Positions 1,186-41,552 of a stretch of 42,027 nt of DNA are shown here, in pieces. This stretch comes from Candidatus Woesearchaeota archaeon (GTDB lineage: Archaea; Nanobdellota; Nanobdellia; SCGC-AAA011-G17; ARS1403). Position 1 is the first letter of the stretch. Each line of letters opens with the position of its first letter. The DNA lies in contig CAYIWL010000002.1 of assembly GCA_964367085.1 (NCBI GenBank), positions 1 through 42,027 of the forward strand. Reading direction: 5' to 3'. Below the pieces are notes generated by a model. It ran no database searches. It was not told where the DNA came from and saw nothing but the letters and a program-made list of their open reading frames with translations. A program made the translations under genes and the position numbers.

Positions 1186-2972
1186 AAAAGAGGATTTTAG
1201 AAATAGATCCAGCCAAATGGTATGATGTAAAAACTCTTTCTATAAATGGATTTTTAGATGAAGGATTTCGATGGGAGCGCTATTTTTTGCATAGGGGTGA
1301 TATGATCTTGGGTGGGTCGCTGACTTATTATCTAAAGGGATTAAACGGCATATCCTATGACAATAAGGATTACATAAATACTTTCACATTAGCAGACGTT
1401 GTTGGGGATAACCTTTTTGATTATTTAAAACAAAGCCCGCAATTGGTAACTACTGCTGTTTTCGACGGAACACCAATGCAATTCGTATTTACTGGTAAAC
1501 TAAAATCCTTGCAGCACTTAATAAATGAACAAACAAAAGAACAGGATGCTTTAGCAATCTTACCAAAATTATCTATTGATCCCAGCATAATAGCCTATAT
1601 AAACTATAATTCAGAAAAAGCTGTTGAGCAGTTAGCAGAGGACACTGGATTAGATCCATCCTATGTAGAAGCATTGATGTATAAACTTTTGCTAAGAAGC
1701 GACCTCACAACAGAAAGGGCAACCGCATTAAAAAAAAGGATAGATGACTTAGGAGAAGAAGATCAACAAACAAGAGCACATTTCACGCCAAGTATAAGTG
1801 TTTTAAGATTTTTTGGCGACAGAAAATCAGAAAATCAATCTAGAAAGGTTCAATATAGTATCCAGGAAGCCATGAAGATATCCGGGAGGCCATATGAAGA
1901 AATCTCAAGAGCGATTGATGCTGGAGTGTTAAAAGTTCGAGTTATCTCTCCAGAAAGAACTGAGAGGATCCACACATATTCTATTAGCAGCTCTTCTCTA
2001 GAAAAATTCTGTAAAAATGGATATGTTCCTCCAATTATGACTAGAAGGGAAAAGATATTAGCAAAAAAGAAGAAACCTGTTTTTCGATCTAAAAATGAAG
2101 AATGGATGTCTTTTAGGTCTTTATTGAATTCTCCATTGTCTATACTGCAGAGGGATATTGATTCAAACGAGATTCTTACAAAAGATGAAGAAGTTGAATT
2201 ACTTCATAGGATAAAAGAAGGGGACACTTTGGCACTGAATGATTTAGTGGAAGCCCATATCCCTTTTCTTGTTGGCATGGCTCGACAATATGATTGGAGG
2301 TCTCATAATTTAGAATTAAAAGATTTAGTGCAAGAAGGTGTTTTTGGCTTATGCGAATCAGCTCATAGATGGAATCATGAAATGGCAGTAAATAAAGAAA
2401 CAGGTAAACCTTATAATTTTCAAAGTTACGCTATATGGTGGGTTAGAAGCTTTATTGGAAAAGCACTTGTACATGGGCAGGCAGTGTCAGAACATAATGA
2501 TGTATTTAATAGTGGAAGCAAAGTATTAAGAATTTATAATTTCTTGGCGCATAATTTTGAGAGATTTCCTACACCGGAAGAAGTAGCAAAGGAAACAAAA
2601 GTACCATTGCATATAGTAAATAAAATCCTTAGCCACAATAAAAGGGGTCTTTCTTTTGATAGAAAACTCAGAGAGGATGAGGATGAAAACCTTTACAGTG
2701 TAACGCAAAATGAACAAGCTGAGGAAGAATCCAATGAAATATTTAGAAATGCAGACAGGGAAGATGTTAGAGCCATAATAGATGAATTGCCTAATAGAGA
2801 AAAAGAGATATTAAAACTATATTTTGGAATCGGCACAGATCATCCATTAACACTAGCGGAAATAGGGAAGATGAAAGGATTGACAAAAGAAAGGATCAGG
2901 CAGATAAATGAGAAAGCATTGGATAAATTAAAGCATCCTTCTAGAATAAAAAGATTAGAAGAACTTCTTTAA
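1164..2972 (+). CDS. sigma-70 family protein (RpoD-like regions 1.2-4.2) with ~335-aa N-terminal extension
   Basis: The C-terminal ~267 aa read as canonical sigma-70. Motifs: ILTKDEEVELLHRIKEGD (1.2); LVEAHIPFLVGMARQY and DLVQEGVFGL (2.1-2.2); FQSYAIWWVRSFIGKAL (2.3-2.4); RFPTPEEVAKETKVP (3); LPNREKEILKLYFGIG..LTLAEIGKMKGLTKERIRQINEKALDKLKHPSR (4.1-4.2). The N-terminal part contains an HTH-like stretch, YSIQEAMKISGRPYEEISRAIDAGVLKV. Confidence 0.85.
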   Translation: MLTRDQIEKRILEIDPAKWYDVKTLSINGFLDEGFRWERYFLHRGDMILGGSLTYYLKGLNGISYDNKDYINTFTLADVVGDNLFDYLKQSPQLVTTAVFDGTPMQFVFTGKLKSLQHLINEQTKEQDALAILPKLSIDPSIIAYINYNSEKAVEQLAEDTGLDPSYVEALMYKLLLRSDLTTERATALKKRIDDLGEEDQQTRAHFTPSISVLRFFGDRKSENQSRKVQYSIQEAMKISGRPYEEISRAIDAGVLKVRVISPERTERIHTYSISSSSLEKFCKNGYVPPIMTRREKILAKKKKPVFRSKNEEWMSFRSLLNSPLSILQRDIDSNEILTKDEEVELLHRIKEGDTLALNDLVEAHIPFLVGMARQYDWRSHNLELKDLVQEGVFGLCESAHRWNHEMAVNKETGKPYNFQSYAIWWVRSFIGKALVHGQAVSEHNDVFNSGSKVLRIYNFLAHNFERFPTPEEVAKETKVPLHIVNKILSHNKRGLSFDRKLREDEDENLYSVTQNEQAEEESNEIFRNADREDVRAIIDELPNREKEILKLYFGIGTDHPLTLAEIGKMKGLTKERIRQINEKALDKLKHPSRIKRLEELL

Positions 2973-4812: not shown

Positions 4813-6305
4813 TCATAACTAACCGCCCCTTTCTTGTAACTTTCTTGTCCTGCTATAACCTGTCTTGCGTATTCAATATTAATTTTTGTTCTTTCTTTAG
4901 CTGATCCTAAATAATTTTCCAACTTTCCTTGCAATACTCGTCTTTTATTTTCTGGAAGAGATGAATATAATTCTCTAAATTCGGAATCCACTAATGAAAC
5001 ATCTAATAATTTTCTTCTTTCTTTCTTTGCTCTTCTTCCAATCTCTCTTACAAAATCATGTCCTACTCCATATTTTGAATGAATCCAGGCTTCTCCCCTT
5101 AGTATTGCTACCATTGCTTCACTTGGATTTTCTCTTACTACATTTAGATTTCTTTCAATAACATCTTCATTGATAGAAAGTTGAGTTAAACATCTATTTA
5201 CTCTCACAAAAGACTCATATGTTTCTGTCATCATCAATTGAGGTTGATACCTTGCTGATTTTGAGCCTCTTAAATCTCGTTGTAGATCTGTTGATATCAT
5301 CCCATATAACAAGCGCATTCCGCTTTCAACAATTGCTGGCGTTCCAGCCACGTTTTCATAATCAATAGGATTATTCTTTGTTGCATCAGCACTTGATCCT
5401 CCTAATCTTTCAGCATTATCTCTTGATGTTACTTCATTAACTGCAGAGGAATATAAAATTCTTATGTCATTTGTAAAATCACCTAAAACATGAATTAAAG
5501 TTGTTAAACTATTTCCAACATCAGCTAATCTTTCTTTTTGAACTATTTGCGATGCCGTATAATCTGGGTTTAAGCCTAGTTTTTCAAGAACTCTCTTTTC
5601 AAATTCCATCGATCTTCCTTCTCCAATAACCATATCTATGCTTGCTCCTGTTCCAACAATGCCTGAAATTTTTCCTTTTAGTCTTGAGAAACTTCTATCT
5701 GTTTCAGATACTCTATCTGCTATTCTTGCTGCATAGCTTGAAATTGTCAATCCGAATGTAACTGGAGATGTGTCTTGCAAATGTGTTCTCCCTATTTGCA
5801 TAATATCAGCTGACCTTTCGCTAATATCACATAATTTTTCTATTGTTTTAGCTATTTCTGGCTTTATTGCTTCCTTCCATGCTTTTTTAAATAGATAAGA
5901 ACGAGCTGTGTCTAATATATCATAAGATGTCGTTCCAGGATGGAGCAAGGCTTTTGTTTCTTCAGATACATATCTTCCTATTTCTTCTATAACCGCTAAC
6001 TGATCATGTCTTGTAACTTGTTCTTCGAGAAGGGTTATATTTAATGGATTTATTTTGTCAAATGCTTTTTCAACTTCATCTAGATGTCTTTGTTTTGCTT
6101 GTCCAAATTCTACTCTTGTTTCCAGTAAAACTTTTTGAATATGAACACAGCACCTCCACTCTGCTTCAGCACTGAGATAATCAGCTAATTTGGCTGAGGT
6201 TTTCACATACTTGCCATCGTCTGGAGAAATAGATCTTAATGAATGCCTTCTAAAAATTCTTTCTTCATCATCTAACTTCGAAACTAAATCAATATCTTTA
6301 TCCAT
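4809..6305 (-). CDS. purB: adenylosuccinate lyase
   Basis: Fumarate-lyase-superfamily motifs GRTHLQDTSPVTFG and GGSSADATKNNP (a divergent form of SSxMPxKxNP). 498 aa. Adjacent to purC and purE. Confidence 0.8.
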   Translation of the reverse strand: MDKDIDLVSKLDDEERIFRRHSLRSISPDDGKYVKTSAKLADYLSAEAEWRCCVHIQKVLLETRVEFGQAKQRHLDEVEKAFDKINPLNITLLEEQVTRHDQLAVIEEIGRYVSEETKALLHPGTTSYDILDTARSYLFKKAWKEAIKPEIAKTIEKLCDISERSADIMQIGRTHLQDTSPVTFGLTISSYAARIADRVSETDRSFSRLKGKISGIVGTGASIDMVIGEGRSMEFEKRVLEKLGLNPDYTASQIVQKERLADVGNSLTTLIHVLGDFTNDIRILYSSAVNEVTSRDNAERLGGSSADATKNNPIDYENVAGTPAIVESGMRLLYGMISTDLQRDLRGSKSARYQPQLMMTETYESFVRVNRCLTQLSINEDVIERNLNVVRENPSEAMVAILRGEAWIHSKYGVGHDFVREIGRRAKKERRKLLDVSLVDSEFRELYSSLPENKRRVLQGKLENYLGSAKERTKINIEYARQVIAGQESYKKGAVSYD

Positions 6306-8051: not shown

Positions 8052-8561
8052 TTATTTTTCTATAATAATTTTAGCTCTTGTAATAATTACTCTTGCTAAC
8101 TCTAGAATTTCTTGGTAGAGATCATCTTTAATTGAAAGCTCCGTCCCATACTGATACTGTTCTCTAATCTCTATTATTGTCTTTTCACTGATATCTTCGG
8201 TGTTAAGGGCTGCCATCTTATAAATTATTTCTTTTTCTAAGTCGATTTTATTTTCCTCTATTAAGCTGTAAATTAGTGCGAAAGTACATTCCTGATTTCT
8301 AGATTCATATCCGAAATTTGTAGCAATTGCCAGCAAACAGTGATACATTGCATAAAATACTGTGCTTGAGCTTATGTCAGAGAAATTTCCTCTGTTCAGA
8401 TACTCTGTCGCACTAAAGTAGTGTTCTGCTTTTTTGATATGATCTCTTGCTTTTGATTTGTCAGGCTTAACCTTTGCTAAACCGCGATGCTTTCCAGACT
8501 CTTTGAGTTCTCTTTCAGATTTTTTCAAGCACCATTCAACTTTGTTCTTTGCATGACTCAT
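8052..8561 (-). CDS. HEPN domain protein (partner of the adjacent nucleotidyltransferase)
   Basis: 169-aa all-helical protein (ARDHIKKAEHYFSATEYL.., AMYHCLLAIATNFGYESRNQE). Its start lies 1 nt after the stop of the upstream NTase gene, the classic MNT-HEPN arrangement. Confidence 0.7.
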   Translation of the reverse strand: MSHAKNKVEWCLKKSERELKESGKHRGLAKVKPDKSKARDHIKKAEHYFSATEYLNRGNFSDISSSTVFYAMYHCLLAIATNFGYESRNQECTFALIYSLIEENKIDLEKEIIYKMAALNTEDISEKTIIEIREQYQYGTELSIKDDLYQEILELARVIITRAKIIIEK

Positions 8562-8562
8562 T

Positions 8563-9150
8563 TTACATGGGTTTTAGTGAATCAATTATCACCTCTTCTC
8601 CAAAAACAATAATCCCTTTAAGGGCATTAAGCAGGACTTTATCTTTCTTTCTTATGTTTCTGGCAAAATCTTCTTTAGTCTGATAGAGGGGGTGGATTTT
8701 TTTAATATTTATCTTGTTTATCCCATCTATTTCTGCTTTCACTTTTGAAAATCTTTTTTGATTTGTAATTATCATGATGTCTATATCTTTGGCTTCCTGA
8801 TGCTTTTTTAAAACAGAGCCGAACATAATTGCAGCGTCGGCATTTTTTATTTTCTTAATTTCAGAAATCCATACCTTGACATAGTGATGCGAGCCCTCTG
8901 CTTCTCTCATCAGCAGGAACTTTAGGTATTGTCTTGCATAGTCATTGCTAAAATTAAATCTGAAGAACTTAGCTTTTCCCTTTTCATCCGATATTATTAC
9001 ATCTTCTTTTTCAAGTTTCTTTGCTATCTTTAAAGCTCCCATTGAGCTTATACCAATATGATGAGCAATACTATTTGCATTATACTCTAACTCGGGGGTT
9101 TTGAATATTGTAAGTACAAAAAGCATTTCATTATCTGTTATGTTTCTCAT
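8563..9150 (-). CDS. winged-HTH fused minimal nucleotidyltransferase (MNT)
   Basis: N-terminal wHTH (SIAHHIGISSMGALKIAKKLEKEDVI) plus NTase motif MFGSVLKKHQEAKDIDIMIIT (GS..DxD). Confidence 0.75.
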   Translation of the reverse strand: MRNITDNEMLFVLTIFKTPELEYNANSIAHHIGISSMGALKIAKKLEKEDVIISDEKGKAKFFRFNFSNDYARQYLKFLLMREAEGSHHYVKVWISEIKKIKNADAAIMFGSVLKKHQEAKDIDIMIITNQKRFSKVKAEIDGINKINIKKIHPLYQTKEDFARNIRKKDKVLLNALKGIIVFGEEVIIDSLKPM

Positions 9151-16302: not shown

Positions 16303-17106
16303 TCACTCAAATCTCTTAACCTGCTTCTTCATCTCAGCTACGAAGTCTTCTGCTTTTTCTCTTAGATCATCAATCTGCTTTCCATGCAATGATTTTACAT
16401 TTCCATGAGTTATGTTATGCGCCACCATATACATCTCCCTAAAGTAAGCAGGATATTTTGAATTTAATTTTGGCAGGACTTTTTTTAACATGTCATAAAC
16501 ATGTTCAGGAGATGGGGGAGAATGGCCTGCTGCCATTAAAGCTGCATGTGCTGCATCAACCATTGCCCAATATAATCCTTCTACAGCTCCAAGTATTGCA
16601 AATCTTGATCTTGATAAGTGCATAGGGGCTCTTTGAAGTGAAATATAAACTGCTTCTGGCGTCGGCCTGATTTTTCCTCGTCGCAAAAGAACTTTTAATG
16701 GAGAGAATAATCCGCCATAGTCAACTAAAGGCTCTCCGTATCTTAAAACATTTATTGCAACTGGATCTCCTTCTTTTATTTCCTTCCAGAAAGTTGAGAG
16801 CGTTACAGTATTGATATGCAAATCTTTCTTGTAACTTTGCTGAGAAATTAAAATTGAAAGCTCTTCTCTATACCATGCAATTAATTCTTCATCCCAGAGG
16901 ACAGTGCAATCATCTACAATAATTATTATATCGATGTCTGACTTTTTTGTTGCTGTCTGCTTTGCTGCTGATCCGAATAATGCTATTGATTTTATAACGT
17001 TTTGAAACTTTTTATAAGCTTTAATTGCAAAATCATAAGCAATTTCTTGGTCCGTTTCAAGAATTTTTTTCCTTACTTCACTCTTCTCAGGCTTTTTTGG
17101 CGGCAA
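16303..17106 (-). CDS. nucleotidyltransferase fused to a HEPN-like helical domain
   Basis: LFGSAAKQTATKKSDIDIIIIVDD (GS..DxD), then PTPEAVYISLQRAPMHL..LYWAMVDAAHAALMAAGHSPPSPEH. Same architecture as the C-terminal two-thirds of 3037-4812. Confidence 0.7.
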   Translation of the reverse strand: MPPKKPEKSEVRKKILETDQEIAYDFAIKAYKKFQNVIKSIALFGSAAKQTATKKSDIDIIIIVDDCTVLWDEELIAWYREELSILISQQSYKKDLHINTVTLSTFWKEIKEGDPVAINVLRYGEPLVDYGGLFSPLKVLLRRGKIRPTPEAVYISLQRAPMHLSRSRFAILGAVEGLYWAMVDAAHAALMAAGHSPPSPEHVYDMLKKVLPKLNSKYPAYFREMYMVAHNITHGNVKSLHGKQIDDLREKAEDFVAEMKKQVKRFE

Positions 17107-19818: not shown

Positions 19819-21546
19819 TCATTCAGTAACCATGCCATGAGATTTCTTATATACGAGATAAATCTGGTATGCACTCCTTACAGATGCTTTCTTTGCTTCA
19901 TCTCTTGCCAACTTTCCAATCCAATTAAGATCTGGCTTTGGCTTGAATAATGATTGTAGCGGGTCGAAGATTTCTTTCGTTCCTTTTGATAATGAAGTTA
20001 GAATGTTTTCTTCTTTAGGCTTTAATTTCTTCATGATGTCTTTAATCTCTTTCTTATATTTCTCTATTGCTTTCTTATCTGACACGCTATTTATCAGCTG
20101 CTCTAATCTTTTTATTTTTTCTTCTGGGTCTTCTGTCTCTTTCTCTTCCTGCTCAAGATATTTTGCTATTTCATCCTGCATTGATTCAAGCGAATCTTTT
20201 GTCATGCTCTCAATTAATTCTAGACCTTGATATAATTCTTCTTTTTCAACTGCATTAACCTCATCTTCATCTAAACCGAAACCACGGAATTTTACATTTA
20301 CTCTTCCTCCTTGGGTGTAATGGTAGCCAGATTCTGATCTTGAAGTACTATGCGGGATAGTTCTATAAGTCATCGTAACTTCAACGCAAGAATAAATCTT
20401 CTTCGGCAGTTTAATATTGGCAAATTTATTCTTTGTAAATATGTAATTAGATGACGTTTTCGGGAGTACATCAGAAGGTCTCATTTCTTTCTTTCCAAAT
20501 AAACTGACTTGAAGCTGCATGTTGTTGAAAATAGAAACCAAATCCGCTGTCCTGTAGTCAGTAGACATTAACTGCTGTGCTGCTTTTAAATAAGGTCTAG
20601 CCCACTGAGAATAAAGTTTTAGAGAATTTACCTGCGATTTCAGATATGCTCTTTCTATTTTATATCTTCTTGTTAACTCTGTTTCTGATAATTTTTCCCA
20701 GGCGAGATATTCCTGTATTCTCGGAGCTAGAATTCTTTTAACCCTGTCATTTAAATCCATGCCTTCTCTTTTATCATCGCCCATAACCTCTTCTACTGAG
20801 TCTGCTGCCATGAACGCATCTCTTAAAGTTACAAATTGAAGCTGCTGAGCCATCATGTTTATGCTTCCTCTTCCTCTTTGGATATCAACTCTGTCCATCC
20901 AAACCTGCTTCAAGGATAATCTTGCATTATTTTTTTCTAAATCGTCATATGATTTTAGTTTTTTGTATAAATCTAATCTTTGATCAAATTCTTTCAAATC
21001 GTAGAGAATATTTATTATTGACCTTACCACTGAATTTATTGTTGTGAGCATCTTCATTGCCCTGTCCTGCATTATTGAAGCCCTTGTTCCTAAGTCTCCA
21101 AAGAACCCAGAGCCAACTGCTCCCTGAAATTCGTCTAATGTTTTCTTAACTTCCAATCCCGTCCCCCAGTAATTGTCGCGCATGTAATCGACTATCCAGA
21201 AATAAACCGGCTCCAAACCTTCTGAGAACGAGTCGTAAATTAATAAATATCCCGACTTGCCGTCGATAAAGCTTCCTAATCCTGATAGATCTGAAGGGGT
21301 CTTTTCACCAATTGAATAACCCATCTTTGTCGGGCCTATATCTATGTCTGCACTTGACTCTAAAGGAAGTGTGTTCTTTATTGCTGCTACGATTTTTGCA
21401 TCTCTTTCTTCTGAAGGAAGATTTTTGTATTTCTTGCTGTAATGTCTTATCAACGCTCTTTTAACTGTTGATTCTCCGAACTGTCTTTCATCTAGTTTTT
21501 CCAGCTCTTTTTGCCTTTGTTTTTCTGAAGAATCATCATCTGGCAT
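19819..21546 (-). CDS. large hypothetical protein, first gene of a three-gene operon
   Basis: 575-aa uninterrupted ORF with a globular-looking core (EPVYFWIVDYMRDNYWGTG.., TTINSVVRSIINILYDLKEF, ERAYLKSQVNSLKLYSQWARPYLKAA) and a charged C-terminal tail. No family recognised. Confidence 0.6.
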   Translation of the reverse strand: MPDDDSSEKQRQKELEKLDERQFGESTVKRALIRHYSKKYKNLPSEERDAKIVAAIKNTLPLESSADIDIGPTKMGYSIGEKTPSDLSGLGSFIDGKSGYLLIYDSFSEGLEPVYFWIVDYMRDNYWGTGLEVKKTLDEFQGAVGSGFFGDLGTRASIMQDRAMKMLTTINSVVRSIINILYDLKEFDQRLDLYKKLKSYDDLEKNNARLSLKQVWMDRVDIQRGRGSINMMAQQLQFVTLRDAFMAADSVEEVMGDDKREGMDLNDRVKRILAPRIQEYLAWEKLSETELTRRYKIERAYLKSQVNSLKLYSQWARPYLKAAQQLMSTDYRTADLVSIFNNMQLQVSLFGKKEMRPSDVLPKTSSNYIFTKNKFANIKLPKKIYSCVEVTMTYRTIPHSTSRSESGYHYTQGGRVNVKFRGFGLDEDEVNAVEKEELYQGLELIESMTKDSLESMQDEIAKYLEQEEKETEDPEEKIKRLEQLINSVSDKKAIEKYKKEIKDIMKKLKPKEENILTSLSKGTKEIFDPLQSLFKPKPDLNWIGKLARDEAKKASVRSAYQIYLVYKKSHGMVTE

Positions 21547-21607
21547 AATCCTGCTAATGCCTGTTTCTATAAAAACTTTTTTATATTAGAAGTGTCTTGG
21601 ATTTATC

Positions 21608-21955
21608 ATGGGAATTTTTAATTGGCTTAGGTCACGCAAAAAAAATGAGGATGATAGCGAGGAGCAGGCTTATAATGAAGACTTGGATGATGTAAAGACT
21701 GAAGTTCCTCCCTGGAGCAGGGGATATGAAGAAAAATTTCAGCAACGCCAAAATAGAACTGATAGATTTTCAGATGCTGGAAGAGAATGGGGGCAGGCGC
21801 AACAGCCTATGCAGCAATCTTCAGGAAGCAATGAGATTATTCTTGCTAAGCTTGATGTCATAAGCGCCAAACTTGATAATTTGAACCAAAGGCTTGCTAA
21901 TCTTGAAAGATATGCGGTTGATGATGAAAAAGATAAAAGCCGAGCACGATGGTGA
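21608..21955 (+). CDS. hypothetical protein with C-terminal coiled coil, overlapping lspA
   Basis: 115-aa ORF. ATGGTGA overlap with the lspA start. LAKLDVISAKLDNLNQRLANLERY heptads. Confidence 0.45.
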   Translation: MGIFNWLRSRKKNEDDSEEQAYNEDLDDVKTEVPPWSRGYEEKFQQRQNRTDRFSDAGREWGQAQQPMQQSSGSNEIILAKLDVISAKLDNLNQRLANLERYAVDDEKDKSRARW

Positions 21956-22344
21956 AAAAATTATTTGCAATTTCTCTTTTTGTTGTTATTCTCGATAGGA
22001 TTCTTAAGTTTTATTTCCTTGACCTTGAAAATGAATTTTTTATATTTAAGTACAGCTTGAACACTGGTGCTGCTTTTGGATTACTCCCTGGCTGGAATAA
22101 TTTTCTGATAGTCTTTAGCGTTATTGTTGTTGCATTTATCCTTTATCATAGGAAGAATAAAAAACTGGAAGCTGGAATGGGATTTTTACTAGGAGGAACT
22201 ATAAGTAATTTAATTGACCGGATCTTTTATCATGGCGTTGTAGACTACATTCACATTGACTTTTTGAATAACATATTTAATCTTGCTGACGTTGCTAACC
22301 TTATTGGAGCGGGGATTTTAGCTTATTATTTTTGGAAGGAATAA
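21949..22344 (+). CDS. lspA: lipoprotein signal peptidase (signal peptidase II)
   Basis: NTGAAFGLL, GGTISNLIDRI and VVDYIHIDF..IFNLADVAN: all LspA boxes, including both catalytic Asp positions. Four hydrophobic segments. Confidence 0.85.
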   Translation: MVKKLFAISLFVVILDRILKFYFLDLENEFFIFKYSLNTGAAFGLLPGWNNFLIVFSVIVVAFILYHRKNKKLEAGMGFLLGGTISNLIDRIFYHGVVDYIHIDFLNNIFNLADVANLIGAGILAYYFWKE

Positions 22345-22374: not shown

Positions 22375-22575
22375 ATGGGAGAAGCAGTACCCTTAGAGAA
22401 TACTTTGGATCTCAAATTTGAAAACAAAGAGCAAGAGTTTAGATTTAGTAGGGTGGTATACGATGTACTTAATGACAGAGGGTGGTGTTATGAGCATAGA
22501 ATAGATTATGTTCAACCCGATGTTAGAAAAGTTGAACAAATTGTGTATCGTGAACTGTTTTTGAAATCAGTTTAG
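22375..22575 (+). CDS. small hypothetical protein
   Basis: 66-aa ORF in an otherwise empty interval. No family recognised. Confidence 0.35.
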   Translation: MGEAVPLENTLDLKFENKEQEFRFSRVVYDVLNDRGWCYEHRIDYVQPDVRKVEQIVYRELFLKSV

Positions 22576-22579
22576 TAGT

Positions 22580-23017
22580 TTAATTTTTTAGCCTTCTTTC
22601 TTTTGGAACAAAATTAAGTACCTTTCCTTCCTTGTATTTTCCAGTGCCGTAAAAATCGTTGTTGTTTTTTATCAGCACAAAGCCTTCAAATTCTTTATTT
22701 GTTTCTATGTCTCTTCCTCGAATCCAATTGTGCAGTTGCTCTTCATTGACTTCAAGAATGTTTTTTTTAGAGTTAGGACCGATTAGCTGTGAGCCCTCTA
22801 TAGTTAATCTTATTTCATTTTCAACGTTTGCAAAATATAATCCTAGAGAATTAATTCTTATCTTTGAGAGATCTATTTCTAAATCTTTATTGAAGATGAA
22901 TACTTTCTTATCCTGGTTTATGAAAAAATTATAATCTAAACTTCCTGAAAAACTGAATTGATCCTGCAGCTGCTTTAACAGAATTTTTCTTTCTTTGTTT
23001 GAGATGAGTTTTAGCAT
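22580..23017 (-). CDS. Nip7-like pre-PUA/PUA domain protein (ribosome biogenesis factor homologue)
   Basis: SLGLYFANVENEIRLTIEGSQLIG.., ..GFVLIKNNNDFYGTGKYKEGKVLNFVPKERRL matches the archaeal Nip7/UPF0113 plus PUA pattern. Confidence 0.7.
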   Translation of the reverse strand: MLKLISNKERKILLKQLQDQFSFSGSLDYNFFINQDKKVFIFNKDLEIDLSKIRINSLGLYFANVENEIRLTIEGSQLIGPNSKKNILEVNEEQLHNWIRGRDIETNKEFEGFVLIKNNNDFYGTGKYKEGKVLNFVPKERRLKN

Positions 23018-23523
23018 TTTCTAATTGTTTCCTGTTTTAAATCCAGCAAATCAATAAATCCTTTTCTGTAATCTGTAATTTCTTCATTATTAGTTTTTGA
23101 TATAAAATCAATTATCTTACTATTAAAAATTTCGGCTTTTCTTACCGTGTCTTCGACTTCTCTTTTTGATATAGTAAAATCGATGTAATACTGTTTGTCT
23201 ACTCTTTCTGTTTTTGCATTGAAGATTTCCTTATTATCCAATAGAAATACTTCTTTCAATAAAATTATTGAGGCAGAATGATTTTCTGATTTTATGCCTA
23301 CTTTAAAGAGTAATGCCAGGAGTAGGTAATACATACTATAATATGCAAGCCCGACAGATTCTTCAAGCTTGTCATTACTAAGCAGTATTTTGGCAGAAGA
23401 AAGATTGCTTTCTGATTTCTTGATGTAGGATTCTTTTATCTCCTCGCTTGGTTCAACTAGTTGTAGTTTCCCTTCTTTGCTGAGTTTAATCAAAAACCCT
23501 ATTTTTTTCATAATAGTATTCAA
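23011..23523 (-). CDS. HEPN domain protein
   Basis: Helical 170-aa protein (SNLSSAKILLSNDKLEESVGLAYYSMYYLLLALLFKVGIKSENHSASI). Overlaps the upstream NTase gene; the true start may be an internal Met. Confidence 0.7.
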   Translation of the reverse strand: MNTIMKKIGFLIKLSKEGKLQLVEPSEEIKESYIKKSESNLSSAKILLSNDKLEESVGLAYYSMYYLLLALLFKVGIKSENHSASIILLKEVFLLDNKEIFNAKTERVDKQYYIDFTISKREVEDTVRKAEIFNSKIIDFISKTNNEEITDYRKGFIDLLDLKQETIRKC

Positions 23524-24043
23524 CGCCTTTTATTATGACATGATTCTTTTCGATTTCTCTAATTAATGGATCTGATTTATCATACTCTCCGATTTTTATG
23601 CTTAACTTTGAACTAATTGAACTTAAGTCCTCTTTTATCACTTTATCCTTTGTCTCAATATAAACATCAATATCGCTCTCCTGCTTTGCTAAACCTTTAG
23701 CATATGAACCAAATAAGATAGCAAGTTTTATCCTTTTGTCTTCTTGTATTTTTTCTATAATTCTTCGTAGATTAGGATATTTTTTAAGTAGTTTATTTAA
23801 CTTGTAATTCTCAGAAGAGAGGATATAACTCCTTGCCTCGATCGTTTTCTTCAAGAAATATTTTTTGTTTTTTCCTTCTGTTTTGTAATCAACTACGTTC
23901 TCGGCTTGCAATTCTTTCATCTTCCTTGCAATAGCCATGTGATTTGTATTTAGCTTCTTTGCAATTCCTCTTATGTGATTGTCATTGCTGATTAGTTCAT
24001 TGATAATTTCCATTTTGTAACTTTTTTGTTTCATATGTAACAT
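23486..24043 (-). CDS. HTH-fused minimal nucleotidyltransferase (MNT)
   Basis: N-terminal HTH (IRGIAKKLNTNHMAIARKMKELQAENVV) plus LFGSYAKGLAKQESDIDVYIET. Second copy of the wHTH-MNT/HEPN pair in the window. Confidence 0.75.
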   Translation of the reverse strand: MLHMKQKSYKMEIINELISNDNHIRGIAKKLNTNHMAIARKMKELQAENVVDYKTEGKNKKYFLKKTIEARSYILSSENYKLNKLLKKYPNLRRIIEKIQEDKRIKLAILFGSYAKGLAKQESDIDVYIETKDKVIKEDLSSISSKLSIKIGEYDKSDPLIREIEKNHVIIKGVEYYYEKNRVFD

Positions 24044-35651: not shown

Positions 35652-35999
35652 TTATTTTGGCAGAACATTTACATCAACACAATCTTTGTCTTTTGCACCC
35701 TCATTGTCTGTCACTTCAAGGCATGCTGAAAAATAACCTACTGCGTGATATATGTGCATTACTTTTTCCCCTGTCGCTGTACTGCCATCATCAAAGTCCC
35801 ATCTGTAGCTTATTATCTCTCCATCATGATCATAACTTCTACTTCCATCAAAAGTAATTCCGTTTCCCGAATATATTGAATCTTCTGTTGATGCTATTAC
35901 TAATGCTCGCGGTTCATAATTTTCTGAAGGTCCATTAATACAGCTTCCAATGATTATCGGAGTTAGAACAATTGCTGTTAAACTTTTTAAGCTTTTCAT
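35652..35999 (-). CDS. small PKD-domain lipoprotein
   Basis: Signal peptide with lipobox IIIGSC. PKD motif ITFDGSRSYDHDGEIISYRWDFDDGSTATGEKVMHIY..GYFSACLEVTDNEG. Confidence 0.8.
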   Translation of the reverse strand: MKSLKSLTAIVLTPIIIGSCINGPSENYEPRALVIASTEDSIYSGNGITFDGSRSYDHDGEIISYRWDFDDGSTATGEKVMHIYHAVGYFSACLEVTDNEGAKDKDCVDVNVLPK

Positions 36000-36052: not shown

Positions 36053-36754
36053 ATGCTTGAAAATATTATTCAATCTTCTGTAAATAGAAGGGGTTTCCTG
36101 AAAATAGCATTTGCTTCCTCTGTTTTTGGATGTGGCAAAAATAAGATTGTGATCGAAGAACCAGAAAATGGGACTGACATCGAAAATAAAGTTTTCAGTA
36201 TTTTTGATTATTATCCCTTGGAGCAGGGTAATGAATGGATTTTCCAGAGAGGTAAGAGGGTAAGAGTTTCGTCTGTTAGTTGGGAGGGTGATAGGAAAAT
36301 TATCGAGATGATAGGGTTTTTAGGTGGTGAAGTTTCAGGATATACTTACTATGTTGAGGATGATTCGCTTTTATTGTATTCTACTAATGGCGGTGGAACG
36401 TCCTATGAACCTCCGATTAAAATGGGAACTTCTACCCTTCAGATAGGAGATAGTTTTACTACTGATTTTGATTATTATATGATGTTCAGTGATTGGATAA
36501 AAGTTGGAGGGGGAGAAAGCAAAATTACTGTCCTTCAACCTGAGAAGATAGAATCTGCGGCTGGCAAATTCAAGAATTGTTTGAAGATTGAACAGGTTTA
36601 TTTTAATGAGCTTTTCGGTGAGTTGATTAATGAGGCTGAGCCTGTTGTCCGCACTTATTGGTTTGCTAAAAATATTGGGATCGTAAAACTTGCTTCTTTT
36701 CTGCCAATAAGTGGACATTACAATGAATTTTATTTGGAGCAATACAAAGTATGA
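36053..36754 (+). CDS. Tat-signal plus lipobox surface protein, paralogue 1
   Basis: SVNRRGFLKIAFASSVFGC (RRxFLK then lipobox Cys). Shared domain motifs FSIFDYYPLEQGNEWIF, AGKFKNCLKIE, YWFAKNIGIVK. Confidence 0.7.
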   Translation: MLENIIQSSVNRRGFLKIAFASSVFGCGKNKIVIEEPENGTDIENKVFSIFDYYPLEQGNEWIFQRGKRVRVSSVSWEGDRKIIEMIGFLGGEVSGYTYYVEDDSLLLYSTNGGGTSYEPPIKMGTSTLQIGDSFTTDFDYYMMFSDWIKVGGGESKITVLQPEKIESAAGKFKNCLKIEQVYFNELFGELINEAEPVVRTYWFAKNIGIVKLASFLPISGHYNEFYLEQYKV

Positions 36755-37518
36755 AACTTGAAAACCTATTGGATAAAGAAATCAGTAGGAGAATGTTTTT
36801 GGCTGGCTTAGCTATGGAACTTTTCATTGGCTGTAGTGAAAATAAAATTACAAACCCTCGCAATCGTTATGATCCCGATCAAAATGATCAAAATACTAAA
36901 GAGCGTGATGATAAGTTTAATATTTTTGATTATTTCCCTCTTGAAACAGGCAATGAATGGATTTATGCGATAAAGGGAATTCCTAGCGAGAATAATGATA
37001 TTGATAGGGTGTTGTCTGTGAGAGATGATGTTGATAAAAAAGTTGTTGTCATAGGGAGTGGAAATGTGTCCTTGGGATCTTCTGCTAAGATGGAATACCA
37101 TCATATTTATTACATCCAAAATGGATCACTTCTTTCCTATGGAAGTGACTATGGAGATGACCATTTATACGTTGAGCCCCCTATTGTGGAAGGAAATTTA
37201 AGTATGAGTGTCGGAAGCAGGTTTGTTACTAATTTTAATTTCTATAATAAGATTAACTCCGACGAATGGAAGCATATGGGAAAGGGAGTAAGCACATTTA
37301 CTTTATTGTCATTAGAAGATATAGAAGTTCCTGTAGGAAGATTTGAAAACTGCTTGAGGATTGAAGGCAGAAAGAATTACAAATTCTTTGATGAATCAAT
37401 TGATAGGACCCCTATTGTTAAAACACATTGGTTTGCCAAGGGAATCGGGAAAGTAAAAACCTCTCTGGAGATATTGCAAGACTATTATGAATTCGAGTTA
37501 ATTGATTATAGCGTATGA
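36751..37518 (+). CDS. Tat-signal plus lipobox surface protein, paralogue 2
   Basis: EISRRMFLAGLAMELFIGC. FNIFDYFPLETGNEWIY, VGRFENCLRIE, HWFAKGIGKVK. ATGA overlap with paralogue 1. Confidence 0.7.
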   Translation: MKLENLLDKEISRRMFLAGLAMELFIGCSENKITNPRNRYDPDQNDQNTKERDDKFNIFDYFPLETGNEWIYAIKGIPSENNDIDRVLSVRDDVDKKVVVIGSGNVSLGSSAKMEYHHIYYIQNGSLLSYGSDYGDDHLYVEPPIVEGNLSMSVGSRFVTNFNFYNKINSDEWKHMGKGVSTFTLLSLEDIEVPVGRFENCLRIEGRKNYKFFDESIDRTPIVKTHWFAKGIGKVKTSLEILQDYYEFELIDYSV

Positions 37519-39074
37519 AACTAGAAGATATTTTGCACAATGAGATTAATCGAAGAGACTTTTTGATTAGATTAGCTGCTGCTTCTGCATTAGGGTGTAG
37601 TAGTGATAGTGATAATGGTTTTGGATATTATAAAAATGAGCCAAAAGAAAGATCTCCGACTCCTGGAGGGGGAGGCAGTTCTGGAAATAAAGATCCTGCA
37701 GGGGATTATACAAGAATAAAGGACTCTGGATATGTTGCACAGAGTAGCGTTGTGGAAAGAGGATATAATGGTATTGAATTCAGCAACAATTATGGCACGG
37801 AGGCAATTTATCCTGTTGAAGAAGACAGCGACGGAAATAGAACTTTTATTGGAGAAAATATTATTCTTGGTCTTTATGAGAATAGTACGGATATGATTGT
37901 ATCTGCTTATGATATGGAAAATAGATACTTACCCAATGTTGAATTTATATCTAAGAATGCATCTGGCAAGATTCTTGGAAGAAGAGAAATTGAATTGTAT
38001 CTGAAGGATAAATTAAACAAGGCGATAGAATTTGGAAGAAATGCTTTCATGAAAAATATAGAAAGCGCATTGCCTAATTACGACCCTGAGCATATTATTT
38101 CACTTCCTGGAGTTGTTTATCAGGGAGATTGGTCGTTCAACCAAGTTAAAAACTTAAATACTTTGATAAATGAAAGTAGTACTGTACTCACTTTTATCCC
38201 TGGGCCACATGTTCCTATAACAACTAAAATAAGTATTGCTACAGAAATCTCCGGTGGATGGCTGGATTCTATTGATGAAATAATAGATATGGTAAATGAA
38301 TCTACCTCACTTAATATAGACAAGGACTATAAGTTCAGTTGGTATATTGTTGGCGGAATCCATTTGATAGTTCCAAGCGAGCTAATTGACAGTATCAAAA
38401 GAAGAAATCCAAGATTTGGGGTCCTTGATTTTGTTCCTTTAGAAAGCGGGAATCAATGGAGTTATAACTCCAGCGAATTTGGAATTGCCAGGAGTACGAT
38501 AGAAACTAAGACAATTAATGACAAAAAAATTATCTCTGTTAGAAGCAGTACAGGGACGGCCAGTTACTATGGATATCGGAACGGCGAATTGAAACTTATG
38601 GGAGCTGATCACCCAAATAGCGGAGAGTTTTATTTTGAGCCAGGGGTAGTTATTGGGGACGACAGCATGAGATTAGGAGATGTTTTTGAAACAAATAGCA
38701 AGGTTATTTACAGAAATTACCCTGGTGTTGATGTTAACATTGTTGGAACCAATCAACTGGAAAAATTCGAGCATGTTTCTGTTCCTGCTGGTGAGTTTGG
38801 CGATTGCTTAAAAGTAAGAGAGATCTTGAACTTTAATGGTAGGAATAGGGAAACAGGAGAAGACATTTCGTTCATGGATACGGCATACTCATGGTCTGCA
38901 AAAAATGTTGGGACGGTAAAATCTAGGATAGAAGGTACTGGGATTTTAAGCAGACAAACCAGCGAGCTGCAGAGTGCTGAAATAAATGGTACGAGATTGC
39001 CAAAGATAATTGGCGGGGAGATTGTTCCGATCCTTATTGAAGCGTCCTCTGAACTATGCAGAAGACTCAGATGA
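37515..39074 (+). CDS. Tat-signal plus lipobox surface protein, paralogue 3 with an extra ~300-aa N-terminal region
   Basis: EINRRDFLIRLAAASALGC followed by a Gly/Ser linker. The C-terminal third carries FGVLDFVPLESGNQWSY, AGEFGDCLKVRE, YSWSAKNVGTVK. ATGA overlap with paralogue 2. Confidence 0.7.
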   Translation: MKLEDILHNEINRRDFLIRLAAASALGCSSDSDNGFGYYKNEPKERSPTPGGGGSSGNKDPAGDYTRIKDSGYVAQSSVVERGYNGIEFSNNYGTEAIYPVEEDSDGNRTFIGENIILGLYENSTDMIVSAYDMENRYLPNVEFISKNASGKILGRREIELYLKDKLNKAIEFGRNAFMKNIESALPNYDPEHIISLPGVVYQGDWSFNQVKNLNTLINESSTVLTFIPGPHVPITTKISIATEISGGWLDSIDEIIDMVNESTSLNIDKDYKFSWYIVGGIHLIVPSELIDSIKRRNPRFGVLDFVPLESGNQWSYNSSEFGIARSTIETKTINDKKIISVRSSTGTASYYGYRNGELKLMGADHPNSGEFYFEPGVVIGDDSMRLGDVFETNSKVIYRNYPGVDVNIVGTNQLEKFEHVSVPAGEFGDCLKVREILNFNGRNRETGEDISFMDTAYSWSAKNVGTVKSRIEGTGILSRQTSELQSAEINGTRLPKIIGGEIVPILIEASSELCRRLR

Positions 39075-40609: not shown

Positions 40610-41552
40610 TGTGTTATCCCGAAATTATTTCATAAGGCTGATTTAATCAGCTTTATGAAACTAAATAAATCTAAACTTCTTGAGACCTTAAAAAGGCTAA
40701 ATAATGGTGCTACTGCCTACCAAGCTAGGAAAGTAGCAAATATATCTGTAAGGAGAATTTATCAGATAAAGCAGATATATGAAGAAACTGGGGAGATTCC
40801 TGAAATAGGAAAGAGAGCAGGGCGTCCATGTAAAATGATTCAGCAATGGGAAATTGTTATTGTGAAAGAAGCTTATGAGAAATACAGAGTGTCAGCTGAC
40901 ACTCTGGAGAGAGTAATTAAGAGAGACTATGAAAAGCAAATTGCTCATAACAGGATTCATAAAATCCTGATTGAGCTTGGGTTTGCAAAACCCAAAGAGA
41001 AGAAAGATGTCAGGAAAAAGAAATGGATAAGGTATGAGAGAAAGCACAGCTTAACCGCAGTTCATATCGACTGGCATTATTATCAGAGCAAGTGGATTTT
41101 TGGTGTTGAAGATGATGCAAGCAGGAAACTGCTTGCATTGCTCGAATGCAAAAATGAGACTACAGACGAATCAATAAGAGGAATGAAGCTTGCCTTAAGG
41201 CATGGAAAAATAAAGCAGTGCATCTGCGATCATGGCCCTCAATTCATCAGCAATCTTGGAGGATATTCAAGATTTGCTGCATTCCTTCATGAAGAAGGGA
41301 TCAAGCAGATACTATACAGAGTCAAGCATCCGCAAAGCAACGGGAAGATAGAGAAGTGGTTTGACTGCTATGACAGGCATAGGAAAGCATTTAACAGCAT
41401 AGAAGAATTTTTGCATTGGTACAATGATATTAAGCCTCATAGAAGCTTAAATTTTGATGTGCTTGAGACCCCGTCTCAAGCCTTTATCAGGAAATTGAAA
41501 AAATGAAGATGGGAAAAAATCTATCGTTGGGAAATAATTTCAGGATACTACA
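40610..41552 (+). mobile_element. intact IS481-family-like insertion sequence (943 bp)
   Basis: Terminal inverted repeats TGTGTTATCCCGAAATTATTTC (40610-40631) and GAAATAATTTCAGGATACTACA (41531-41552), matching at 19/22 positions and with TGT ends. A single DDE ORF. Flanked by a perfect 16-bp direct repeat. Confidence 0.8.
40655..41506 (+). CDS. DDE transposase (rve/integrase core) with N-terminal HTH
   Basis: HIDWHY..GVEDDASRKLLA (D), CDHGPQF (D), HPQSNGKIEKWF (E), YNDIKPHRSL. The 15-nt palindrome GCTGATTTAATCAGC (40637-40651) lies just upstream of the ATG. Confidence 0.85.
   Translation: MKLNKSKLLETLKRLNNGATAYQARKVANISVRRIYQIKQIYEETGEIPEIGKRAGRPCKMIQQWEIVIVKEAYEKYRVSADTLERVIKRDYEKQIAHNRIHKILIELGFAKPKEKKDVRKKKWIRYERKHSLTAVHIDWHYYQSKWIFGVEDDASRKLLALLECKNETTDESIRGMKLALRHGKIKQCICDHGPQFISNLGGYSRFAAFLHEEGIKQILYRVKHPQSNGKIEKWFDCYDRHRKAFNSIEEFLHWYNDIKPHRSLNFDVLETPSQAFIRKLKK

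What the first reader, a model, noticed from the sequence alone, without database searches (positions are those of the whole stretch)
21949..22344. Bacterial-type signal peptidase II (LspA) with all catalytic boxes in an archaeal context, matched by lipobox substrates in the same window
The ORF has NTGAAFG, GGTISNLIDR and FNLAD, including both catalytic Asp boxes. Archaeal lipoprotein maturation is generally thought not to rely on Lgt/LspA homologues. This window also encodes at least four proteins with a lipobox Cys after a signal peptide: IIIGSC at 35652-35999, and VFGC, FIGC and ALGC at 36053-39074. That suggests a functional bacterial-style processing route acquired by transfer. lspA is translationally overlapped (ATGGTGA) by an unknown 115-aa coiled-coil ORF.
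Basis: partly seen in the sequence, partly recalled or inferred. Interest (0 to 1): 0.6.

Follow-up and report, generated by a model that had tools for sequence, protein, structure and literature searches.

The report
Bacterial-type lipoprotein peptidase in DPANN archaea
A tiny groundwater-type archaeon (Woesearchaeota/Nanobdellota) carries an intact bacterial-type lipoprotein signal peptidase, and elsewhere in its genome the matching lipid transferase Lgt; both genes are kept across almost the whole archaeal class, which contradicts the textbook statement that archaea have no homologues of these enzymes.

Summary
ORF 21949-22344 (+) is a genuine Peptidase_A8/LspA. Pfam gives 87 bits against a cut-off of 25. 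All 14 conserved LspA residues are present, including the catalytic pair D99 and D114. The AlphaFold model (pLDDT 90) matches only solved LspA structures.

The contig is archaeal: it carries archaeal/eukaryotic-type uL16, diphthine synthase and XPD. It is not a contaminant.

The same genome encodes Lgt (183 bits) on another archaeal contig. No Lnt was found.

This is not a recent transfer. LspA and Lgt each occur in 39 of 41 genomes of the same order. LspA occurs in 265 of 300 high-quality genomes of the class, including closed chromosomes. Whole families lack both genes together.

Signal peptides ending in a lipobox Cys are conserved in orthologues of candidate substrates.

lspA is translationally coupled to a clade-specific coiled-coil ORF, and this pairing is kept across the order.

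Databases already name these genes. Reviews from 2018 and 2025 nevertheless state that no archaeal Lgt or Lsp homologue exists, and I found no paper reporting these ones.

The lipid donor is unknown. Lgt carries a clade-typical H103F change. A bacterial donor lineage could not be identified.

Verdict: a new member of a known kind, and of real interest to archaeal envelope biology.

The parts
21949..22344 (+). lspA: lipoprotein signal peptidase II homologue, 131 aa, four transmembrane helices, catalytic pair D99/D114
   Evidence: Pfam PF01252 87.4 bits. TIGR00077 63.5 bits, below its 73.95 cut-off. PDB LspA 9emz/5dir at E about 3e-9. All 14 conserved residues present. AF2 pLDDT 90.1, and Foldseek hits only LspA 6ryp/6ryo/5dir with TMq 0.78-0.88.
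21608..21955 (+). Conserved upstream partner ORF, 115 aa, no TM segment. It has an MGIF..KK head, a TEVPPWS motif and a C-terminal amphipathic/coiled-coil helix. Its stop overlaps the lspA start by 7 nt.
   Evidence: No Pfam family. Found directly upstream of lspA, mostly with the same 7-nt overlap, in genus, family and other families of the order. ESM Atlas places it in Woesearchaeota-only hypothetical families.
21580..21588 (+). TATA-box-like element (tttatatta) about 24 nt before the ATG of the upstream ORF. It is a putative archaeal promoter for a leaderless two-gene transcript.
   Evidence: Read from the sequence only; inference, not tested.
35652..35999 (-). Candidate lipoprotein substrate: PKD-domain protein with signal peptide ending IIIGS|C
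   Evidence: N-terminus; PKD_4 75 bits; found by the census.
36053..36754 (+). Candidate lipoprotein substrate, paralogue 1: RRGFL...SVFG|C
   Evidence: N-terminus; census; distant homologues in G002 and G007 keep RR plus the lipobox Cys.
36751..37518 (+). Candidate lipoprotein substrate, paralogue 2: RRMFL...ELFIG|C
   Evidence: N-terminus; 41% identical to paralogue 1.
37515..39074 (+). Candidate lipoprotein substrate, paralogue 3: RRDFL...SALG|C
   Evidence: N-terminus; census; homologous to paralogue 1.

Best explanation
The ORF encodes an active, compact lipoprotein signal peptidase II (LspA). It is the second enzyme of a bacterial-type two-step lipoprotein maturation route that this archaeon and nearly its whole class (Nanobdellota: Woesearchaeota/Pacearchaeota-type DPANN) maintain. 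Shown: the archaeal setting, both enzyme genes, their conservation, and the conserved lipobox substrates. Inferred mechanism: precursors with a Sec-type signal peptide ending in a lipobox are exported. Lgt (G000 contig C17:5280-6017) attaches a glyceryl-lipid to the lipobox Cys. LspA then cuts just before the lipidated Cys using the D99/D114 aspartyl pair, leaving the protein anchored to the outer face of the membrane. No N-acylation step follows, because no Lnt was found. lspA is co-transcribed and translationally coupled with a small clade-specific coiled-coil protein of unknown role. The lipid donor is not known. The genome lacks detectable GGGP synthase and CDP-archaeol synthase and has a PlsC-like acyltransferase, so scavenged lipids, possibly bacterial-type phosphatidylglycerol, are a plausible donor. 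The genes were not acquired recently; they go back at least to the ancestor of the class.
For: Family and active site: Pfam 87 bits, and all 14 residues conserved in solved LspA are present. Fold: pLDDT 90, and only LspA structures match.

Archaeal contig: uL16 of archaeal/eukaryotic type, dph5 and Rad3/XPD lie on it.

Lgt: 183 bits, sitting next to an archaeal-type D-aminoacyl-tRNA deacylase. Against E. coli Lgt, E is 2.7e-29, with R143, N146, E151, G154, Y235, R239 and Y26 kept.

Conservation: LspA in 39/41 and Lgt in 39/41 genomes of the order. LspA in 265/300 high-quality genomes of the class. Both genes lie on closed chromosomes, for example CP066683.1.

Joint loss: 13 of 20 LspA-negative genomes also lack Lgt, by whole families.

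Substrates: about 8-9 lipobox candidates in the genome. The lipobox Cys is kept in 13 of 16 secreted DUF192 orthologues despite divergent signal peptides, and in distant homologues of the tandem family.

Operon partner: conserved across the order.

Origin: holding all archaeal LspA as one clade is not rejected and gives the better likelihood.

Controls: four model archaea lack both families.
Against: There is no biochemical evidence. TIGR00077, the strict lspA equivalog model, scores 63.5, below its trusted cut-off of 73.95. The protein is 20-50 residues shorter than characterised LspA, with trimmed extracellular loops. Enrichment of Cys at the +1 position in my crude genome census is weak (about 2.9-fold, p = 0.02). 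The partner enzyme Lgt has Phe where E. coli has His103, and that His is essential in E. coli. It is unknown whether a suitable lipid donor exists in an archaeal membrane. Seven LspA-negative genomes still have Lgt.
Confidence: 0.8

Rival explanations
1. The region is a bacterial contaminant contig or a binning error, so the LspA is simply bacterial.
For: The bin has 5.3% estimated contamination. The contig also holds a sigma-70 gene and other bacterial-looking genes.
Against: The same 42-kb contig carries archaeal/eukaryotic uL16, diphthine synthase and XPD. GC content is even along it. The local gene order (575-aa ORF, 115-aa ORF, lspA, PUA gene) recurs in independent archaeal MAGs. LspA and Lgt lie on closed archaeal chromosomes.
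Confidence: 0.01
2. lspA was picked up recently by this organism or genus from a neighbouring bacterium.
For: The more distant sequence matches include CPR bacteria such as Berkelbacteria, which share habitats with DPANN.
Against: The gene is present in 39/41 genomes of the order and 198/224 genera of the class sample, with identities falling smoothly from 84% to about 35%. Operon structure is conserved. The archaeal sequences can be held as one clade with a better likelihood.
Confidence: 0.03
3. The genes are real and old, but the pathway is not a lipoprotein route of the bacterial kind. For example, LspA acts as a general or specialised signal or leader peptidase. Or Lgt, with its H103F change, transfers something else, or is inactive while lipidation is done by an AliA-type archaeal enzyme.
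For: Lgt carries H103F, E202A and E243D in most of the clade, and H103 substitutions inactivate E. coli Lgt. Only a few substrates are predicted. LspA is trimmed and sits below the TIGR00077 cut-off. A clade-specific partner protein is coupled to it.
Against: All 14 substrate-binding and catalytic residues of LspA are kept. The Lgt signature motif and both catalytic arginines are kept. Lgt and LspA are lost together by whole families. The lipobox Cys is conserved in substrates.
Confidence: 0.12
4. About origin only: the pair is not a transfer from bacteria. It is inherited from a very early ancestor (of archaea or of all cells) and was lost or replaced by AliA/AliB in other archaea.
For: A single archaeal LspA clade is favoured, and no bacterial sister group is resolved. 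The archaeal Lgt and LspA clades are very deep, with identities down to 30-40%. Hong et al. suggest AliA might itself derive from Lgt (PMC12462473).
Against: Four model archaea lack both families, and published surveys found none in other archaea. This clade is known to hold many genes of bacterial type, including sigma-70, as also seen here. The trees here are unrooted and poorly resolved.
Confidence: 0.12

Closest known systems
Bacterial lipoprotein signal peptidase II (LspA; Pfam Peptidase_A8; solved: P. aeruginosa 5DIR, S. aureus 6RYO/6RYP)
   Same: Same fold: four TM helices plus a small beta element, TMq 0.78-0.88. Same 14 conserved residues, including the aspartyl pair. The same partner enzyme Lgt is in the genome. 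Substrates have the same lipobox design.
   Different: The host is an archaeon. The protein is only 131 aa against about 155-190, with shortened loops between TM1 and the NxGAAF strand and between the two Asp (D99 to D114 is 15 residues, against 18 in S. aureus). It falls below the strict TIGR00077 cut-off. It is fused into an operon with a clade-specific coiled-coil ORF not known from bacteria. The lipid on its substrates is unknown.
Bacterial prolipoprotein diacylglyceryl transferase (Lgt; E. coli 5AZB)
   Same: The genome's Lgt (C17:5280-6017) scores 183 bits on PF01790. It keeps Y26, G27, Y30, the signature motif (R143, N146, N149, E151, G154), Y235, R239 and R246.
   Different: It is 245 aa against 291, with a shortened head domain. 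It has H103F (F in 92 of 116 close archaeal homologues), G145A, E202A and E243D. G145A is also common in other Lgt.
Archaeal AliA/AliB lipoprotein lipidation system of Haloferax volcanii (arCOG02177/02178; Hong et al. 2025)
   Same: It serves the same cellular purpose, anchoring lipobox proteins on an archaeal membrane. That paper notes archaeal genomes with many predicted lipoproteins but no AliA/AliB.
   Different: AliA has only marginal similarity to Lgt, and its signal peptidase is unidentified. Here the enzymes are unambiguous Lgt and LspA family members. I could not test whether this genome also has an AliA homologue, because no reference sequence or model was available to me.

Membership tests
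LspA / Peptidase_A8 (signal peptidase II) | Significant match to the family profile over its full length | tested here: met
   PF01252 87.4 bits against a cut-off of 25, covering profile positions 1-141 of 142.
LspA / Peptidase_A8 (signal peptidase II) | Score above the strict equivalog cut-off of NCBIfam TIGR00077 (lspA) | tested here: not met
   63.5 bits against a cut-off of 73.95. It is the best hit, and all 22 hits are LspA models. NCBI nevertheless names close homologues 'signal peptidase II'.
LspA / Peptidase_A8 (signal peptidase II) | Catalytic aspartyl pair (S. aureus D118/D136; P. aeruginosa D124/D143) and the other 12 conserved residues | tested here: met
   D16, K20, N38, G40, G83, N87, D90, R91, V97, D99, F110, N111, A113 and D114 align to the 14 residues listed in PMC6952399.
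LspA / Peptidase_A8 (signal peptidase II) | Four-helix membrane fold with beta-cradle | tested here: met
   AF2 pLDDT 90.1, pTM 0.84. Foldseek matches only LspA chains at E <= 1e-6. The loops are shorter than in the solved enzymes.
LspA / Peptidase_A8 (signal peptidase II) | Cleaves lipid-modified prolipoproteins before the lipobox Cys; inhibited by globomycin | not testable with these tools
   Needs biochemistry or complementation.
Bacterial-type lipoprotein maturation pathway (Lgt then LspA, then optionally Lnt) | Lgt encoded in the same genome | tested here: met
   PF01790 183 bits at G000:C17:5301-5987, next to an archaeal-type tRNA deacylase. Lgt is present in 39/41 relatives.
Bacterial-type lipoprotein maturation pathway (Lgt then LspA, then optionally Lnt) | Lgt catalytic residues (E. 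coli Y26, H103, R143, N146, E151, G154, Y235, R239) | tested here: inconclusive
   All are kept except H103, which is Phe here and in most of the clade. H103 is essential in E. coli.
Bacterial-type lipoprotein maturation pathway (Lgt then LspA, then optionally Lnt) | Lnt (N-acyltransferase) | tested here: not met
   The best TIGR00546 hit is 29 bits against a cut-off of 132.9. Lnt is optional in the pathway (many monoderm bacteria lack it; established knowledge). The genome is 84% complete.
Bacterial-type lipoprotein maturation pathway (Lgt then LspA, then optionally Lnt) | Substrates with a signal peptide plus lipobox Cys | tested here: met
   About 8-9 candidates among 944 crude genes. The Cys is conserved in orthologues. 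Genome-wide statistical enrichment is weak (p = 0.02).
Bacterial-type lipoprotein maturation pathway (Lgt then LspA, then optionally Lnt) | Phosphatidylglycerol (diacyl, ester-linked) as lipid donor | not testable with these tools
   No GGGP synthase or CarS was found. A PlsC-like acyltransferase is present. These are hints only.

The most novel reading that the evidence does not exclude
A whole archaeal phylum-level lineage (Nanobdellota) runs a genuine Lgt-then-LspA lipoprotein pathway that has been adapted to its own membrane. Three features point to adaptation: the clade-typical H103F (with E202A and E243D) active-site changes in Lgt, the compact LspA, and the conserved coiled-coil partner translationally coupled to lspA. 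These would reflect use of an unusual lipid donor, either an ether-linked archaeal phosphoglycerolipid or bacterial phosphatidylglycerol scavenged from bacterial hosts. On this reading the genes are a genomic marker of what kind of membrane, and perhaps what kind of host, these uncultured archaea have.
Probability: 0.35. Interest if true: 0.8.

Novelty: new member of a known kind. Interest (0 to 1): 0.62.

Why it matters
The field's standing statement is that no archaeal genome encodes a homologue of Lgt, signal peptidase II or Lnt (PMC6098224, 2018; repeated in PMC12462473, 2025). The archaeal lipoprotein signal peptidase is still listed as unidentified. Here a large, globally common archaeal lineage carries unmistakable Lgt and LspA genes under long-term purifying maintenance, together with conserved lipobox substrates.

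This gives a concrete answer for at least the DPANN genomes that have predicted lipoproteins but no AliA/AliB. It also makes a sharp question testable with two small, clonable membrane enzymes: can Lgt-type chemistry work on archaeal ether lipids, or do these archaea have bacterial-type lipids?

The result adds an envelope pathway to the list of bacterial-type systems in Woesearchaeota (sigma-70, group I chaperonins). It also bears on the proposal that some of these archaea live on bacterial hosts.

Tried and rejected
- **Contaminant idea:** rejected on marker genes, conserved gene order and closed genomes.
- **Donor search:** a 78-sequence LspA tree with named archaeal and bacterial genomes was too poorly resolved (30 of 75 inner branches open) to name a donor. 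A 146-sequence Lgt tree of 50%-identity representatives could not be split by domain, because both halves contain Woesearchaeota-labelled sequences and most rows have no name.
- **Lgt signature residues as a domain marker:** G145A turned out to be common in other Lgt.
- **The search for related loci with the 72-sequence alignment:** failed for lack of a conserved stretch. The 14-sequence alignment worked.
- **Six LspA-bearing MAGs labelled 'Methanosarcinales':** this looked like a wider archaeal distribution, but it is a label problem. The genomes are 0.9-1.8 Mb, and the GTDB order of one of them (G325) shares genomes with this window's class sample.
- **Tat export of the RR-motif substrates:** no TatC or TatA in this genome, and no TatC in any of 41 relatives.
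- **First lipobox census:** the rule was too strict and missed two window substrates. The relaxed rule gives only weak enrichment.
- **Supplements:** those of PMC12462473 are not held as text, and those of PMC8204110 do not mention these families.
- **AliA/AliB homologues:** I could not search for them, because no model or reference sequence was available to me.
- **Literature:** eight searches found no report of Lgt or LspA in DPANN, and the text of a 2026 Nanobdellota preprint does not mention them.

Full report
**1. What is at the coordinates**

An ATG-started ORF of 131 codons runs from 21949 to 22344 on the + strand.
- It matches Pfam Peptidase_A8 (signal peptidase II) end to end, at 87.4 bits against a gathering cut-off of 25.
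- Every one of its 22 NCBIfam hits is an LspA model. The strict equivalog TIGR00077 reaches 63.5 bits, short of its 73.95 cut-off.
- By sequence alone it finds the solved LspA of P. aeruginosa (5DIR/9EMZ, E about 3e-9) and S. aureus (6RYO, E 2e-6).

**2. Active site and fold**

The S. aureus structure paper lists 14 highly conserved residues: D21, K25, N52, G54, G102, N106, D109, R110, V116, D118, F132, N133, A135 and D136. It gives D118/D136 as the catalytic pair, confirmed by mutagenesis (PMC6952399).

In alignments with 13 and with 71 homologues, the window protein has the equivalents D16, K20, N38, G40, G83, N87, D90, R91, V97, D99, F110, N111, A113 and D114. Eight of these are invariant and the other six are at least 90% conserved among the 72 sequences.

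The catalytic pair is therefore D99 (in GVVDY) and D114 (in FNLAD). This is a small correction that does not change the conclusion.

An AlphaFold2 model built from the 72-sequence alignment has mean pLDDT 90.1 and pTM 0.84, with four long helices and short strands. Against the PDB, Foldseek returns only LspA chains (6RYP, 5DIR, 6RYO) with TM-scores of 0.78-0.88 on the query. The next hit has E about 0.8.

The protein is a trimmed LspA: 131 residues against 155-190, with shorter extracellular loops.

**3. The context is archaeal, not a contaminant**

The window is one whole contig (C2) of an 855-kb, 72-contig genome, estimated 84% complete and 5.3% contaminated.

The same contig encodes:
- ribosomal protein uL16 of the archaeal/eukaryotic type (NF003239, 195 bits);
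- diphthine synthase dph5 (226 bits);
- a Rad3/XPD helicase with the HBB domain.

GC content is even, at 31-38% along the contig. Close homologues are named 'signal peptidase II [Candidatus Woesearchaeota archaeon]' or 'Nanoarchaeota archaeon' by NCBI.

LspA lies on closed archaeal chromosomes: archaeon GW2011_AR20 (CP010426.1), a Woesearchaeota chromosome (CP066683.1) and Pacearchaeota Pace33H (CP061211.1). In CP066683.1 (= G010, one contig of 736,802 bp), both LspA and Lgt are found.

**4. The rest of the pathway**

Lgt. The genome has one Lgt gene, at PF01790 183 bits, on contig C17:5301-5987 (ORF 5280-6017, 245 aa). It lies beside an archaeal-type D-aminoacyl-tRNA deacylase (PF04414, 202 bits).

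Against E. coli Lgt (5AZB), E is 2.7e-29.
- Kept: Y26, G27, Y30, the signature motif residues R143, N146, N149, E151 and G154, and Y235, R239 and R246.
- Changed: H103 to Phe, G145 to Ala, E202 to Ala, E243 to Asp.
- The periplasmic head is shorter.

Among 116 close archaeal homologues, the H103 position is F in 92, H in 17 and Y in 7. In E. coli every tested H103 substitution is inactive (PMC4728403). This is therefore either a tolerated lineage-specific change or a sign of altered chemistry. G145A also occurs widely in other Lgt.

Lnt was not found; the best hit is 29 bits against a cut-off of 132.9.

**5. Distribution: old and vertical, not a local acquisition**

- In 41 genomes of the same order, LspA is found in 39 and Lgt in 39. 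Among the high-quality genomes the counts are 24/24 and 23/24.
- In a 301-genome sample of the phylum (all in one class), LspA is found in 265 of 300 high-quality genomes and 198 of 224 genera. That tally includes two unpublished genomes, G268 and G269; nothing else here rests on them.
- Of 20 LspA-negative genomes, 13 also lack Lgt, and they do so by whole families: f45 3/3, f50 6/6, and f62, f71, f72 and f89. The 7 that keep Lgt include six from families (f36, f37, f44, f46, f86) where other members have LspA; no other member of the seventh's family (f56) appears in the listed rows. Assembly gaps or divergent copies are likely.
- Joint presence and joint loss is what a two-enzyme pathway predicts.
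- In the tool's control set, both families ring in all ten bacteria and in none of the four archaea (M. jannaschii, H. volcanii, S. acidocaldarius, M. acetivorans).

**6. Origin**

A pattern scan of one genome per GTDB species returned 80 named LspA loci. Three truncated ORFs were dropped, leaving 25 archaeal and 52 bacterial rows plus the window's own protein.

The maximum-likelihood tree is poorly resolved. The archaeal rows fall into two moderately supported groups plus two single rows, in a polytomy with bacterial groups. Forcing all 26 archaeal rows (the window's included) into one clade gives a tree with a log-likelihood 29.75 higher than the free quick search found, and an AU test does not reject it (p = 0.93).

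A single origin in the lineage is therefore the best-fitting reading. No bacterial donor can be named, and the tree is unrooted.

Six loci are labelled 'Methanosarcinales' by NCBI, but:
- the five of them checked have genomes of 0.9-1.8 Mb, and four of these five also have Lgt;
- five of the six have LspA sequences that sit among Woesearchaeota and Nanoarchaeota sequences;
- the GTDB order of one of them (G325) contains the same genomes as this window's class sample.

This is a labelling error, not evidence for LspA in methanogens.

**7. Substrates**

A crude census of 944 ORF-based genes finds about 8-9 such proteins in the genome. These include a DUF192 protein (C5:7122-7565, VSG|C), a cupredoxin (C34:8500-8943, VSG|C; Copper-bind 30 bits) and two proteins without a family. 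Cys at the +1 position is only about 2.9-fold over its background frequency (binomial p = 0.02). The census alone is weak evidence.

Conservation is stronger evidence.
- Among 16 secreted DUF192 orthologues from the order, 13 keep a signal peptide ending in a lipobox Cys: VSGC, LLGC, LTSC, LTGC, LSGC, LISC, IFGC, ISGC, IAGC, LAGC, LIGC. The rest of the signal peptide is not conserved, and cytoplasmic paralogues have no signal peptide.
- The two distant homologues (27-29% identity) of the tandem family in other genomes also carry RRD..L...LIFG|C and ...TLFG|C.

The twin-arginine look of that family has no machinery behind it. TatA and TatC were not found in this genome, and TatC was not found in any of 41 relatives. 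Export is presumably by Sec.

**8. Operon**

The 115-aa ORF at 21608-21955 has no Pfam family. It is nevertheless found directly upstream of lspA in the genus, the family and at least three other families of the order, usually with the same 7-nt overlap.

Its orthologues share an MGIF..(R/K)KK head, a TEVPPWS motif, a Q/E-rich linker and a conserved amphipathic helix, EIILAKLDVINAKLDSLNQRLANLERY. The ESM Atlas places it in Woesearchaeota-only hypothetical families of 63-932 members. It has no transmembrane segment, and its role is unknown.

A TATA-like tttatatta lies about 24 nt before its ATG, which would suit a leaderless archaeal transcript (inference only). The divergent 575-aa ORF at 19819-21546 (-) is also conserved next door.

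**9. Lipid donor (inference)**

The genome shows no GGGP synthase (PcrB family) and no CDP-archaeol synthase, and only a sub-threshold UbiA fragment at a contig end. It does have a PlsC-type acyltransferase domain protein (PF01553, 40.9 bits, C50:332-952). In the controls that family rings only in the ten bacteria.

With 84% completeness, absences are only suggestive. Castelle et al. 2021 argued that some Woesearchaeota and Pacearchaeota may be episymbionts of bacteria and carry bacterial lipid-related genes (PMC8204110). Scavenged bacterial-type phosphatidylglycerol is therefore a plausible donor. An ether-lipid donor, with the H103F change as an adaptation, is the alternative. Neither was tested.

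**10. What is known**

NCBI and JGI already annotate these proteins as signal peptidase II and prolipoprotein diacylglyceryl transferase.

In the literature:
- The 2025 study that discovered AliA/AliB says no archaeal homologues of Lgt or Lsp had been identified. It still lists the archaeal lipoprotein signal peptidase as to be found, and it notes genomes with many predicted lipoproteins but no AliA/AliB (PMC12462473).
- The 2021 DPANN protein-family paper reports sigma-70 and other bacterial systems, but not these enzymes, in its text or its two held supplements.
- Eight full-text searches and the text of a 2026 Nanobdellota preprint gave no report.

The library holds only open-access papers, so an earlier mention elsewhere cannot be excluded.

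**11. Verdict**

The enzyme is an ordinary member of a well-known family. What is unusual is the host lineage and the completeness and age of the pathway there. I rate it a new member of a known kind, with interest 0.62.

Noticed in passing
window 1164-2972 (+), with partner ORF 118-1185: A 602-aa protein with sigma-70 regions 2, 3 and 4 (RpoD-like; Sigma70_r4 60 bits) on this archaeal contig. An earlier agent of this scan has already followed it up, and Castelle et al. 2021 reported it for Woesearchaeota.
   Followed up: partly
window 36053-39074 (+); G002:C44 and G007:C49 homologues (L144, L145): Three tandem paralogues and two distant homologues all begin with an RR-x-F/L-L twin-arginine-like motif followed by a lipobox Cys. 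Yet TatC was found in none of 41 genomes of the order, and TatA and TatC are missing here. The conserved RR needs another explanation.
   Followed up: partly
G000:C17:5280-6017 (L002:1480-2217): The archaeal Lgt has Phe at the position of E. coli His103, which is essential there. Phe is the majority state in the clade (92 of 116). E202A and E243D accompany it, and the head domain is shortened.
   Followed up: partly
G000:C50:332-952 (L141): A PlsC-type lysophospholipid acyltransferase domain protein (PF01553, 40.9 bits) lies next to a truncated UbiA-like fragment. No GGGP synthase or CDP-archaeol synthase was found in the genome. This hints at handling of ester-type lipids.
   Followed up: partly
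window 19819-21546 (-): A 575-aa ORF without any Pfam family, rich in charged and coiled-coil-like stretches, is conserved divergently next to the partner-lspA operon in other families of the order (27-48% identity).
   Followed up: no
G000:C34:8500-8943 (L109): A small cupredoxin (plastocyanin/azurin family) with a signal peptide ending VSG|C. This is the same protein type as halocyanin, the classic archaeal lipoprotein.
   Followed up: no
L040, L041, L042, L048, L050, L061 (genome contigs records labelled 'Methanosarcinales archaeon'): Several public MAGs carry a Methanosarcinales label but have 0.9-1.8 Mb genomes. One of them shares its GTDB order with genomes from this window's Nanobdellota class sample, so the NCBI taxonomy label appears wrong.
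   Followed up: yes
window 23011-24043 (-), 8052-9150 (-), 16303-17106 (-): Three nucleotidyltransferase/HEPN-type units (Polbeta/NTP_transf_2 with HEPN), resembling MNT-HEPN toxin-antitoxin pairs, are scattered along the contig.
   Followed up: no
window 22375-22575 (+): A 66-aa ORF just downstream of lspA is detectable in two of three genomes of the genus (44-45% identity) and weakly (25%) in one other genus of the family. Whether it is a real gene is unclear.
   Followed up: partly
window 40655-41506 (+): An rve-type integrase/transposase (IS481-like) lies near the contig end.
   Followed up: no
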